From an uncultured Kiritimatiellota bacterium (lineage in GTDB: Bacteria; Verrucomicrobiota; Kiritimatiellia; RFP12; UBA1067), in contig CAKTZI010000002.1 of NCBI GenBank assembly GCA_934635385.1, forward strand, positions 71,772-135,771: a stretch of DNA of 64,000 bases, given 5' to 3'. Shown one piece after another: positions 50,125 through 51,545 of the stretch. The position numbers and the translations under genes are program-made. Under the pieces are notes generated by a model, which ran no database searches, was not told the origin of the DNA, and saw only the letters and a list, made by a program, of their open reading frames with translations. Each line of letters starts with the position of its first letter. The first letter of the stretch is position 1.

Positions 50125-50175
50125 CGCCGCGTAGTATGCGCTTTCTTTGTTAGGCGCTGATAAGGGGTTTGTGAA

Positions 50176-50416
50176 GATTTGGTTAGGGCGCGACGGCCTC
50201 GCGGTGTAAGGCGCGCGACGGCCTTTCGGCGTCGCGGTCAGGACGACAACCGGCGAATAAGGCGAACCTCTCGGCGGCGAACGGGCTTCGCGTTTGCGCG
50301 CGGGCGTCCTGCGGCTCTCGCCGAAAGGCCGAGAGCCACCCAATCTCTCGGCGTCGCGAGGCCGAGAACCGAACGCCCCCTTGCGGTTTCGGCGCGGTCG
50401 TGCTATACTTTCGGCC
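50176..50416. repeat. REP-like palindromic repeat block, left flank of the transposase (contains gggcgcgacggcctcgcgg units and ggctctcgccgaaaggccgagagcc hairpins)
   Basis: Shares about 150 bp with 51395-51545 (gggcgcgacggcctcgcgg...gacgacaaccggcgaa...gcgcgcgggcgtcctgcgg...ggccgagagccaccc...). Confidence 0.7.
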
Positions 50417-51394
50417 ATGAACGAGTCTCGCGAGATCGGGCATTTTCGGCGCTTTCACGGGTACGACTACACGCGCGGCGCGGCGATGTTCCTGACCTTT
50501 CATCTGGAGCCGCGCGTGCCGCTGTTCGGGCGCGTGGTCGGCGATCGGATGAACTACTCGCCCGTCGGCATGATCGCGCGGCGCGTGCTGGCGCGGGAGC
50601 GCGACCGAACGCCCGACGTGCAGCTCAAGCGTAGTATCATCATGCCTGAACACGTTCATTTGCGGCTTTATCTGCGCCCTGGCCAGGAAAACGCGCTCAT
50701 CTCGCTGGGGCGGTTCGTCTACAACTTCAAGGCCTGGACGCGCAACCGCGCGAAGAAGGAGCTGGGCGTCGAGCTGCGTTGGCAGAAGAACTACCACGAC
50801 CGCATCTGCCCCTCGCGCGAGATCATCACGCTCGCCGACAAGTACATCGACAACAACCCGCGCAAATGGACGCTGATGCATGGCCATCCGCCGCCGCTCA
50901 AGGTCGTCGAGCCGCTGGCGGCGGCGTGCCTGCCGACGAACGAGTGGTGGACGGGCGTCGGGCGCGTCGATTGGCTCGAAGACGCGCGCGTTCGGATCGC
51001 GGCGGTGCGGCTGTCGCGGTCGATTCCGTCCGAGCTGTTTCCGCAGGTCGTCGCGCGGCTCGTGGCGGCGGCCGAAAAGGGGTATGTTCTGGCGGGCACG
51101 TGGATTTCGCCGTGCGAGCGCGTCGTCTTTCAGGAACTGGTTCGGCGGGGCTTTCCGATCATTCGCGGATCGCAAGACCCGCTAGAGCTGGTGTACCGTC
51201 CAAAGAACGACGAGCCGCAGCTGTTCGCCGAGCGGCGCTATCTCGTTCTGTCGCGCGTCTTCGCCGACGGCACGGCGCGCGGCGTCGGCTGGCACGGCAT
51301 CAACGACGCGCTCGCCGAGATTGGGCGCGGGCGGGGTACGAGCGTTTACGTTCGGTGGGCGCGGGGCGTCGGGTTGAACTGGGCGTTTGGGTAG
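50417..51394 (+). mobile_element. REP-associated tyrosine transposase (Y1/IS200-like HuH transposase) with a C-terminal extension
   Basis: ...[18 protein letters not shown]...IIMPEHVHLRLYL...KAWTRN...LRWQKNYHDRI... carries the HuH (HVHL) motif and catalytic-Tyr (NYHDRI) region. The -10 tgctatact sits 7 nt before the ATG. Flanked by REP-like repeats. Confidence 0.75.
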
Positions 51395-51545
51395 AGGGCG
51401 CGACGGCCTCGCGGCGTCGCGGTCAAGACGACAACCGGCGAACGGTAACGGGCTTCGGGTTCGCGCGCGGGCGTCCTGCGGTTCTCGCCGCAAGGCCGAG
51501 AGCCACCCGATCTCGCCGCGCCGCAAGGCCGAGAGCCTTCCTTTA
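51395..51545. repeat. REP-like palindromic repeat block, right flank of the transposase
   Basis: See 50176-50416. Confidence 0.7.

What the first reader, a model, noticed from the sequence alone, without database searches (positions are those of the whole stretch)
50125..51545. REP-flanked tyrosine transposase inserted between pstA and pstB, with a duplicated pst promoter
On the minus strand the locus reads pstC-pstA, then a 1.4-kb insert, then pstB-phoU.

- The insert: a Y1/HuH (IS200-like) transposase with HVHL and NYHDRI motifs.
- Its flanks: two blocks of about 150 bp of REP-like palindromic repeats on each side (gggcgcgacggcctcgcgg units, ggctctcgccgaaaggccgagagcc hairpins). The left block carries an internal duplication.
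- Duplicated promoter: a segment of about 66 bp lies between the left REP block and pstB (plus-strand tttcatcgccgc..agtatgcgctttctttgttaggcg..gataag..). It is about 88% identical to the sequence directly upstream of pstC (53300-53370), and in both copies it ends in ATGAAA.
- Consequence: pstB appears to have its own copy of the pst promoter after the operon was split. This looks like mobile-element insertion followed by promoter duplication or capture.
Basis: seen in the sequence. Interest (0 to 1): 0.6.

Follow-up and report, generated by a model that had tools for sequence, protein, structure and literature searches.

The report
Resident Y1-DprA gene splitting pst operon
An old, now fixed insertion of a hairpin-flanked tyrosine (HUH) nuclease gene carrying an extra DprA-like domain cut the phosphate-transporter operon in two, and the downstream half (pstB-phoU) carries a copied phosphate-starvation-type promoter that probably drives it.

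Summary
On the minus strand the locus reads pstC-pstA, a 1.4-kb insert, then pstB-phoU.

**The insert gene.** The insert carries one 325-aa gene (50417-51394, +). Its N-terminal half has the IS200/IS605 TnpA / RAYT fold, with invariant HUH and tyrosine residues.

**The flanks.** The two flanks are direct copies of one multi-hairpin block. No further copy occurs in the other 62 kb of the window, so "REP" in the dispersed sense is unproven.

**Evidence of insertion.**
- Relatives with PstB 88-92% identical have a contiguous pstCAB-phoU.
- Relatives at 95-98% all carry the insert at the same site.
- In those relatives the gene evolves like its pst neighbours (dN/dS about 0.1).

It is therefore an old, resident element, not a recent jump.

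**The promoter.** The promoter segment is real and exists in three copies, upstream of pstB, pstC and pstS. Each has four hexamers at an 11-bp period plus CATACT, which is Pho-box-like. The pstB copy is derived from the pstC type and is fused at the ATG, which implies a leaderless pstB.

**Verdict.** This is a new variant of a known kind, of moderate interest. The undescribed Y1-DprA-like fusion is the main point.

The parts
48978..49361 (-). phoU, half-length (127 aa, a single PhoU domain)
   Evidence: Pfam PF01895. It matches positions 2-111 of the 212-position TIGR02135 model.
49363..50124 (-). pstB (253 aa). Its ATG lies 8 nt after the -10 box, so a leaderless mRNA is inferred.
   Evidence: TIGR00972 377 bits, above the 343 cut-off. 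Sequence read.
50125..50186 (-). P_pstB, the derived copy of the Pho-box-type promoter. Hexamers: CTAACC 50186-50181, TTCACA 50175-50170, CTTATC 50164-50159, CTAACA 50153-50148. The -10 box CATACT is at 50138-50133.
   Evidence: 64 of 68 positions are conserved against L014, where dS is 0.16-0.28.
50187..50380 (.). Left hairpin array. It holds B-type hairpins (GCGACGGCC-loop-GGCGTCGC, then GTCAGGACGAC) and A-type hairpins (GGYTCTCGCC-GMAA-GGCCGAGARCC). It has a 25-nt internal duplication.
50381..50416 (+). Own promoter region of the insert gene. TATACT is at 50404-50409, 7 nt before the ATG.
   Evidence: Sequence. The same -10-to-ATG layout occurs in L007 and L009, and the region is conserved in L010, L011 and L014.
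50417..51394 (+). Gene for a 325-aa fusion protein. Residues about 1-155 form a Y1 HUH nuclease domain (H79, H81, Y143). Residues about 170-325 form a DprA-like Rossmann domain.
51395..51537 (.). Right hairpin array, a direct copy of the left one (B, long stem, A, A'). It lies between the convergent insert gene and pstA.
51536..51542 (-). AGGAAGG directly after the pstA stop codon, read as the remnant of the ancestral pstB ribosome-binding site.
   Evidence: L017 has pstA stop-...AAAGGAAGGATTTT-ATG(pstB). The window has TAA-AGGAAGG followed immediately by the hairpin.
51543..52391 (-). pstA
   Evidence: TIGR00974 253 bits, above the 193 cut-off.
52436..53293 (-). pstC (GTG start)
   Evidence: TIGR02138 248 bits, above the 196 cut-off.
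53290..53322 (-). 10-codon mini-ORF MKTKEKETKK*. It starts at the promoter's ATG, and its stop overlaps the pstC GTG (GTGA).
   Evidence: Sequence. The same layout is seen in L010 and L011. In L017 this ATG is the pstC start itself.
53323..53385 (-). P_pstC, the Pho-box-type promoter that was the source type for the pstB copy.
53430..53489 (+). P_pstS, the third and more divergent copy of the same promoter architecture. It is followed by a leader of about 65 nt with a Shine-Dalgarno sequence.
   Evidence: (I1, I2).
53556..54446 (+). pstS, divergent from pstCA
   Evidence: TIGR00975 294 bits, above the 205 cut-off.

Best explanation
A 1.35-kb unit entered the spacer between pstA and pstB of an ancestral Kiritimatiellia-type pstCAB-phoU operon. 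The unit is a hairpin array, a gene and a second hairpin array (50187-51537). It landed between the pstB ribosome-binding site and the pstB ATG, and it has stayed there since.

The gene encodes a single-copy Y1 HUH nuclease of the IS200/IS605-TnpA / RAYT fold, fused to a DprA-like Rossmann domain. DprA domains bind single-stranded DNA. The two flanks are same-strand copies of one multi-hairpin block, which is the layout a Y1 enzyme needs to recognise both ends on one DNA strand. The enzyme is inferred to bind and cut these hairpins as single-stranded DNA. The DprA-like domain is inferred to hold the single strand. Today the unit behaves like a resident, vertically inherited gene (a REPtron-like state) rather than an active insertion sequence.

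The insertion cut pstB-phoU off from the pstC promoter. A copy of about 67 bp of that promoter now sits flush against the left hairpin array and is fused at its ATG to pstB. The copy holds four PhoB-type hexamers at an 11-bp period, a CATACT -10 box and the ATGAAA start. It gives pstB-phoU its own phosphate-starvation promoter, probably producing a leaderless mRNA.

Shown: the anatomy, the insertion, the direction of the promoter copy, the folds and purifying selection.

Inferred: nuclease activity on the flanks, PhoB binding, the leaderless start and the role of the DprA-like domain.
For: Insertion:
- L015 and L017 (PstB 92% and 88% identical) have pstA and pstB 46 and 20 nt apart.
- The window keeps AGGAAGG of the L017-type ribosome-binding site next to the pstA stop codon.

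Fixed and old:
- L008 and L010-L014 have the same arrangement.
- For the gene, dN/dS is 0.08-0.13 and dS is 0.14-0.28, equal to the pst genes.
- The exact protein was found in only one context.
- There is no second copy in the window.
- There is one hit per assembly in the genome scan.
- The family is absent from viral contigs, and the plasmid collection holds only two distant hits (27% identity) to the N-terminal domain alone.

The unit travels together:
- Homologs 85-86% identical sit in other contexts (L007, L009) with flanks homologous to the window's flanks.
- L004, L036 and L054 have their own upstream/downstream repeats.
- L009 has a hairpin-A variant changed on both arms.

Protein:
- AF2 pLDDT is 93 for the whole protein and 96 for the C-terminal domain.
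- Foldseek E-values are 4e-7 to 1e-5 to ISDra2, IS608 and E. coli TnpA-REP (4er8).
- The C-terminal domain alone hits only DprA (four species) and ShosA in its top 14 matches, with TM 0.51-0.60.
- A profile of the family aligns HUH and Y143 with ISDra2 HUH and Y132.
- H79, H81 and Y143 are invariant in 41 sequences and in the Bacteroidales homologs.

Promoter:
- There are three copies against 0 expected by chance.
- Invariant TAAC/TCA/AT/CTAAC at an 11-bp period plus CATACT hold across 13 promoters.
- L017 has the same promoter at the pstC ATG.
- P_pstB-specific substitutions are shared by the window, L010 and L014.
- A PhoB-like response regulator lies 1 kb away.
Against: - No transcription data exist. 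The pst read-through from pstA cannot be excluded, because the hairpins lack U-tracts.
- The promoter does not match the sigma-70 consensus. PhoB binding is inferred only from the repeat geometry.
- The protein misses the curated cut-offs: Pfam Y1_Tnp 11.9 bits against 23, and NCBIfam REP_Tyr_transpos 27 bits against 80.
- Folding energy of the flanks is no better than that of shuffles.
- Homolog L001 has no flanking repeats, so the protein can persist without them.
- The polarity of the change (insertion versus precise loss in L015 and L017) rests on parsimony and on the ribosome-binding-site remnant, not on a rooted tree.
Confidence: 0.7

Rival explanations
1. It is a classical RAYT/REPtron. 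In this reading the gene is a domesticated REP-associated tyrosine transposase, and its flanking palindromes are members of a genome-wide REP/REPIN population that it disseminates.
For: - Best NCBIfam hit is REP_Tyr_transpos.
- The fold matches 4er8.
- JGI names two homologs RayT.
- The gene is single-copy, chromosomal, vertically inherited and under purifying selection, which are the RAYT criteria of PMC5581495 and PMC8266576.
- L004 has REPIN-like inverted doublets beside its homolog.
Against: - There are zero copies of the flanking units elsewhere in 62 kb of the window or in the 10-20 kb around other homologs.
- The score of 27 bits is far below the 80-bit cut-off.
- The flanks are direct, not inverted.
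- A 170-aa DprA-like domain is present that no RAYT paper found in these searches mentions.
Confidence: 0.15
2. It is an active IS200-type insertion sequence (TnpA only) with left-end and right-end hairpins, and it transposes by peel-and-paste. The pst site is just its current location.
For: - Same-strand hairpin repeats lie at both ends, as in IS608 and ISDra2.
- The unit of gene plus flanks is found in unrelated contexts in L007, L009 and L004.
- An intact catalytic triad is present.
Against: - The site is the same in all relatives across dS up to 0.28, with host-like substitution rates.
- There is no second copy in the window and one hit per assembly.
- The family was not found on viral contigs or, as the two-domain protein, on plasmids.
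- GC content equals that of the surroundings.
- The number of hairpin units varies between strains, which looks like array dynamics rather than defined ends.
Confidence: 0.1
3. The three similar promoter segments are independent Pho-box promoters kept alike by PhoB binding, not products of duplication. In this reading pstB always had its own promoter.
For: - The pstS copy shares mainly the boxes and the -10 element.
- All three drive Pho-regulon genes.
Against: - P_pstB and P_pstC also share spacer and downstream sequence (AAGAAAGCGCATACT..GCGGCGATGAAA), which P_pstS does not.
- Identity is 86.6% over 67 nt, E 1e-17.
- Uninserted relatives have only a 20-46 nt spacer with a ribosome-binding site before pstB.
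- The first two PstB codons (MK) match the promoter cassette rather than the MEKR/MTQE N-termini of the relatives.
Confidence: 0.05

Closest known systems
RAYT / TnpA-REP with flanking REPs ('REPtron'; E. coli TnpA-REP, PDB 4er8)
   Same: - Y1 HUH fold with HUH and tyrosine motifs.
- Single-copy, chromosomal, vertically inherited and under purifying selection.
- Palindromic repeats immediately flank the gene, and these co-vary with the protein lineage.
   Different: - It carries an extra 170-aa DprA-like domain.
- The flanks are direct copies of a 150-nt multi-hairpin block rather than inverted REPs.
- No dispersed copies were seen in 62 kb.
- The sequence is far below the NCBIfam RAYT cut-off.
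IS200/IS605-family TnpA elements (IS200, IS608, ISDra2)
   Same: - Best structural matches.
- The catalytic tyrosine aligns with ISDra2 Y132.
- End hairpins lie on the same strand at both ends.
- The unit of gene plus ends occurs in different genomic contexts in more distant relatives.
   Different: - The protein is about twice as long because of the C-terminal domain.
- There is no sign of multiple copies or recent movement.
- The ends are long and variable arrays.
- No target or cleavage motif has been defined.
DprA/Smf and the DprA-like ShosA (SLOG superfamily)
   Same: - The C-terminal domain has the DprA Rossmann fold. Its top 14 PDB hits are DprA or ShosA.
- A conserved G-T-x-I-S-P-x-E segment sits where I recall DprA's glycine-rich SG-x-A-x-GID motif (position recalled from memory, not tested here).
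   Different: - There is no sequence-level match to Pfam DprA.
- It lacks the SAM and DML1 extensions.
- It is fused to a nuclease.
- The domain is rare: 66 representatives among 1.84 billion.
Pho-box promoters of PhoB/PhoP regulons (E. coli pstS, B. subtilis PhoP TT(A/T/C)ACA repeats)
   Same: - Direct hexamer repeats at an 11-bp period replace the -35 element, about 10 bp upstream of a -10 box.
- They lie in front of pst genes, with a PhoB-like regulator nearby.
   Different: - The hexamer consensus (yTAAC/TCAC/CTTAT/CTAACA) is lineage-specific.
- The start codon lies 8 nt after the -10 box, giving a leaderless arrangement.
- The whole cassette, including the ATG, has been copied within the locus.

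Membership tests
Y1 HUH (IS200/IS605 TnpA) superfamily | HUH metal-binding motif | tested here: met
   The motif is MPEHVHL. H79 and H81 are invariant in 41 homologs and in the Bacteroidales relatives. It aligns to the ISDra2 HUH.
Y1 HUH (IS200/IS605 TnpA) superfamily | Single catalytic tyrosine on the C-terminal helix (Y-x-x-x-Q/N) | tested here: met
   Y143 in KYIDNNP is invariant, and N147 is invariant. It aligns with KYIES of ISDra2 (Y132).
Y1 HUH (IS200/IS605 TnpA) superfamily | TnpA fold | tested here: met
   Foldseek E-values are 4e-7 to 5e-5 to 2xm3, 4er8, 2vjv, 2f4f and 2ec2, with target TM 0.55-0.67.
Y1 HUH (IS200/IS605 TnpA) superfamily | Pfam PF01797 gathering score | tested here: not met
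   The window protein scores 11.9 bits against a cut-off of 23. 37 of 41 family members hit at E<=1, with the best at 5.5e-8.
IS200/IS605 insertion sequence (mobile element) | Hairpins at both ends on the same strand | tested here: met
   The left and right blocks are direct repeats with the same A and B hairpins.
IS200/IS605 insertion sequence (mobile element) | Several copies per genome or evidence of recent movement | tested here: not met
   One copy in 64 kb. The site is the same in all close relatives and substitution rates are host-like. One hit per assembly. The whole genome is not available.
IS200/IS605 insertion sequence (mobile element) | Defined cleavage and target motifs, with guide pairing | not testable with these tools
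   No empty-site pair at nucleotide resolution is available for a recent event.
RAYT / REPtron | Cognate REP/REPIN population dispersed genome-wide (abundant flanking 16-mers) | tested here: inconclusive
   0 extra copies in 62 kb of the window and in the 10-20 kb around homologs. Two metagenome scans gave nothing usable. The whole genome is not available.
RAYT / REPtron | Single copy, not on plasmids, vertical inheritance | tested here: met
   Criteria are from PMC5581495 and PMC8266576.
RAYT / REPtron | NCBIfam NF047646 REP_Tyr_transpos cut-off | tested here: not met
   27.4 bits against a cut-off of 80.
RAYT / REPtron | Gene flanked by palindromic repeats specific to its lineage | tested here: met
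   The window, L007, L009, L004, L036 and L054 have such flanks. L001 does not.
DprA/Smf (SLOG) domain | DprA-type Rossmann fold | tested here: met
   The C-terminal model has pLDDT 96. Its top 14 PDB hits are DprA or ShosA, E 8e-5 to 1.3e-3, query TM 0.51-0.60. Scores then drop to LOG and MCP.
DprA/Smf (SLOG) domain | Sequence membership (Pfam DNA_processg_A) | tested here: not met
   No Pfam hit in the C-terminal half for any of 41 members. No PDB sequence hit.
Pho-box (PhoB/PhoP-dependent) promoter | Direct repeats at an 11-bp period in place of a -35 element, about 10 bp upstream of a -10 box, in front of Pho-regulon genes | tested here: met
   Invariant TAAC/TCA/AT/CTAAC cores lie 11 bp apart, with 9 nt to CATACT, in 13 promoters of pstB, pstC and pstS.
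Pho-box (PhoB/PhoP-dependent) promoter | Binding by the phosphorylated regulator and induction under phosphate limitation | not testable with these tools
   Only a PhoB-like response regulator nearby is known (186 bits, below the 296 equivalog cut-off).

The most novel reading that the evidence does not exclude
The Y1 HUH / DprA-like fusion defines an undescribed class of chromosomally resident single-strand-DNA elements. It occurs in Kiritimatiellia and Lentisphaerales, with distant members in Bacteroidales. In this reading the DprA-like domain loads the nuclease, or RecA, onto single-stranded hairpin arrays. Its activity on adjacent DNA would be what copied the promoter cassette flush against the element's left end, by read-through or one-ended mobilisation of flanking sequence. 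The element would then both break and rewire operons.
Probability: 0.15. Interest if true: 0.7.

Novelty: new variant of a known kind. Interest (0 to 1): 0.5.

Why it matters
- It is a clean natural example of an operon being cut by a selfish or domesticated element and then repaired by copying a minimal regulated promoter. The copy comprises the boxes, the -10 element and the start codon. The before and after states are both preserved in relatives.
- It exposes a conserved and rare two-domain protein, a Y1 HUH nuclease plus a DprA-like domain. Annotation calls it just 'transposase' or 'RayT', and I could find no description of it.
- If the DprA-like domain really couples hairpin cleavage to single-strand handling or recombination, it would extend what is known about how RAYT-like enzymes persist and act in genomes.
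- It also gives a candidate Pho-box consensus and evidence for leaderless pst transcripts in Kiritimatiellia, a poorly studied phylum.

Tried and rejected
- **Metagenome scans for dispersed copies of the hairpins.** The first pattern gave no hit. The second gave 12 hits, all chance matches in unrelated GC-rich soil contigs with no homolog nearby. REP dispersal therefore stays untested beyond the window.
- **Exact-protein look-ups for PstB and PstA of the window.** Neither is on record. I went through close PstB homologs instead.
- **Genome scan with the family alignment.** The best hit was 54% identical.
- **Thermodynamic folding of the flanks.** The result was not distinguishable from shuffles.
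- **Known families.** Rfam gave nothing. PADLOC and PHROGs gave nothing meaningful. I therefore rejected a known RNA, a defence-system component or a phage gene.
- **Sigma-70 and terminator scan.** It found no canonical promoter or terminator at the relevant sites.
- **Possible link to a palindromic insertion.** I tested whether the pstS-pstC intergenic palindromic insertion of L010 and L011 is a dispersed relative of hairpin A. The shared 9-10 nt are not significant.
- **Literature searches.** Searches for a RAYT/IS200/HUH fusion with DprA or SLOG found nothing relevant.
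Full report
**1. What is in the sequence**

On the minus strand the window encodes pstC (53293-52436), pstA (52391-51543), a 1418-nt gap, pstB (50124-49363) and a short phoU (49361-48978). pstS (53556-54446) and an Alginate_exp-type porin run divergently on the plus strand. 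The four Pst proteins pass the NCBIfam equivalog cut-offs.

The gap holds one long ORF on the plus strand, 50417-51394 (325 aa), containing EHVHLRL and KNYHDRI.

The sequences on either side of this ORF are direct copies of one another. 50213-50370 matches 51398-51537 at 80% over 158 nt (E 1e-40; families D2, D5 and D7). The left copy carries a 25-nt internal duplication and one more indel.

Each block holds two hairpin types:
- a 'B' hairpin (GCGACGGCC-loop-GGCGTCGC, followed by GTCAGGACGAC);
- one or two 'A' hairpins (GGYTCTCGCC-GMAA-GGCCGAGARCC).

None of these units occurs anywhere else in the 64-kb window. Folding energy of the blocks is not better than that of shuffled sequence. The hairpins therefore rest on repetition, on conservation across relatives, and on one variant in L009 changed on both arms.

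**2. The promoter-like segment**

50107-50185 matches 53305-53383 at 82% over 79 nt, and the core is 86.6% identical over 67 nt (E 1e-17).

A third, inverted copy lies upstream of pstS at 53430-53489. That makes three matches where none is expected by chance.

Read in the direction of transcription, each copy has four hexamers whose invariant cores (TAAC, TCA, AT, CTAAC) sit exactly 11 bp apart. Then come 9 nt and CATACT. These positions are invariant in an alignment of 13 pstB, pstC and pstS promoters from five genomes.

This is the geometry of PhoB/PhoP 'Pho boxes', which replace a -35 element about 10 bp upstream of the -10 box (established knowledge of the E. coli and B. subtilis Pho regulons). 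An OmpR-family regulator whose best family match is PhoB lies 1 kb away. No sigma-70 consensus promoter is present.

- In the pstB copy the ATG lies 8 nt after CATACT, so a leaderless pstB mRNA is inferred.
- In the pstC copy the same ATG opens a 10-codon mini-ORF whose stop overlaps the pstC GTG.

**3. Relatives: insertion and direction of the promoter copy**

Contigs whose PstB is 95-98% identical (L010-L014), and L008, have the same pstA / 325-aa gene / pstB arrangement with all three promoter copies.

Contigs whose PstB is 92% and 88% identical (L015, L017) have a contiguous pstCAB-phoU, with 46 and 20 nt between pstA and pstB and no promoter there.

In L017 the spacer reads ...AAAGGAAGGATTTT-ATG. 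In the window, AGGAAGG still follows the pstA stop and runs straight into the first hairpin. The unit therefore sits between the old ribosome-binding site and the pstB start.

L017 also carries the same promoter (…GAAAGCGCATACTGTGCGGCGATGAA…) directly at the ATG of pstC. The pstC-type promoter therefore also occurs in a genome that lacks the insert, which makes it the likely source, and the pstB copy is derived from it.

PstB in the window begins MKQN-YKI, whereas the relatives begin MEKR-YKI or MTQEAEKR-YKI. This fits the first two codons having come with the cassette.

Substitutions specific to the pstB copy are shared by the window, L010 and L014, so the copy predates their divergence. Against L014 it differs at only 4 of 68 positions, although dS of neighbouring genes is 0.16-0.28. 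This suggests constraint.

**4. The gene: resident, not recently mobile**

Between the window and L010, L011 and L014, the gene has dN/dS 0.08-0.13 and dS 0.14-0.28, indistinguishable from pstA, pstB, pstC and pstS. Further evidence:
- There is one copy in the window.
- The exact protein was found in one context only.
- The genome scan gave one hit per assembly.
- There is nothing on viral contigs, and the plasmid collection holds only two distant hits to the N-terminal domain alone.
- GC content is like the surroundings.

At greater distance the picture changes. Homologs 85-86% identical (L007, L009) and 61-72% identical (L004, L001) lie in unrelated contexts. In L007 and L009 the flanks are homologous to the window's flanks. 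L004, L036 and L054 have their own upstream/downstream repeats. Gene and flanks have therefore moved as a unit in the past. L001 has no such flanks.

**5. The protein**

Pfam gives no significant hit for the window protein, and NCBIfam gives only a weak REP_Tyr_transpos match (27 bits against a cut-off of 80).

An AlphaFold model built on 41 homologs is confident (pLDDT 93). Residues about 1-155 match ISDra2, IS608 and IS200 TnpA and the E. coli REP-associated transposase 4er8 (E 4e-7 to 5e-5). A profile of the family aligns its HUH and Y143 (KYIDNNP) with the HUH and catalytic Y132 of ISDra2. H79, H81 and Y143 are invariant.

Residues about 170-325, modelled alone (pLDDT 96), hit only DprA from four species and the DprA-like ShosA in the top 14 PDB matches. 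Scores then fall to other SLOG-superfamily members.

This C-terminal domain is rare. It has 66 representatives among 1.84 billion clusters, and where the protein is full-length the domain sits behind a Y1 domain.

Two-domain homologs with the same invariant residues occur in Lentisphaerales and, at 21-26% identity, in Bacteroidales MAGs.

I found no paper describing such a fusion. The RAYT literature describes only a short regulatory C-terminal tail (PMC8266576).

**6. Interpretation**

The best-supported account has three parts:
- A Y1 element with same-strand hairpin ends (the IS200/IS605 layout) entered the pstA-pstB spacer of an ancestor.
- It became fixed and is now maintained as a single-copy gene, which is the behaviour described for RAYTs (PMC5581495).
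- A minimal Pho-box promoter cassette copied from the pstC type sits in front of pstB-phoU and is inferred to restore its expression.

The right hairpin array lies between the convergent pstA and the insert gene, and the left array lies between the divergent P_pstB and the gene's own TATACT promoter.

Still inferred, not shown:
- that the enzyme acts on these hairpins;
- what the DprA-like domain does;
- whether the promoter fires from the ATG.

**7. Rivals and filing**

I do not file it as a RAYT, for three reasons: the dispersed REP population could not be demonstrated (none in 62 kb), the curated score cut-off is missed, and the architecture differs. I do not file it as an active insertion sequence either, because nothing indicates recent movement. 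Convergent similarity of the promoters is unlikely, given the shared spacer and start-codon sequence.

**8. Verdict**

The novelty lies in the undescribed Y1-DprA-like fusion family and in the unusually clear promoter-cassette repair of a split operon. It is a new variant of a known kind, of moderate interest.

Noticed in passing
window 53290-53322 (-): A 10-codon mini-ORF (MKTKEKETKK*) starts at the promoter's ATG, and its TGA overlaps the GTG of pstC (GTGA). L010 and L011 keep the layout with two amino-acid changes. In L017 the same ATG is the pstC start itself. This suggests leaderless translation coupled to pstC.
   Followed up: partly
window 48978-49361 (-): PhoU is half-length here: 127 aa with one PhoU domain, matching positions 2-111 of the 212-position model. 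The same holds in L010-L014. Uninserted relatives L015 and L017 have PhoU of 215-228 aa.
   Followed up: partly
window 30831-30900 and 34612-34701; L014:2366-2852; L007:3230-3260: A different palindromic, MITE-like repeat built of CACGGAG/CTCCGTG units occurs at two sites in the window. It also appears as an extra insertion in the pstS-pstC intergenic region of L014. This is a dispersed repeat family unrelated in sequence to the flanks of the Y1 gene.
   Followed up: partly
L010:2361-2778 and L011:2468-2885 versus window 53386-53430: The pstS-pstC intergenic region of L010 and L011 carries an extra palindromic element of about 150 bp, with 15-nt terminal inverted repeats GGCTCTCGCTACCGC / GCGGTAGCGAGAGCC. 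The window has only the right-hand remnant. Its ends share 9-10 nt with hairpin A, but this is not statistically significant.
   Followed up: partly
window 9698-9834, 14544-14585, 16190-16231: There is another GC-rich repeat: 33-nt inverted arms 71 nt apart at 9698-9834, with related 42-nt copies at 14.5 and 16.2 kb. Its nature is unknown.
   Followed up: no
window 6529-6609: A near-perfect 40-nt palindrome (88% complementary, 1-nt loop) that is AT-rich, in a GC-rich genome.
   Followed up: no
window 35042-36094 versus 36892-37935: Two adjacent segments of about 1 kb are 75-87% identical (spacing about 1850 nt), apparently tandem paralogous genes.
   Followed up: no
window 50404-50419; L007:2003-2022; L009:1395-1415: The Y1-DprA-like genes have a TATACT/TATAAT box 6-7 nt before their ATG. 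This is the same -10-to-ATG spacing as at pstB and suggests that leaderless mRNAs are common in this lineage.
   Followed up: partly
L026, L027, L036, L038, L040, L041, L054 (Bacteroidales MAGs): Distant two-domain homologs (21-26% identity) keep the HUH, the catalytic Tyr, and the ISxxE, KP and LN motifs of the C-terminal domain. L036 and L054 have near-identical 36-41-nt repeats on both sides of the gene.
   Followed up: partly
L001:5386-6999: The 72%-identical homolog in L001 has no flanking repeats. It follows a 202-aa ORF of unknown function with a 6-nt gap, which suggests an operonic and possibly fully domesticated state.
   Followed up: no
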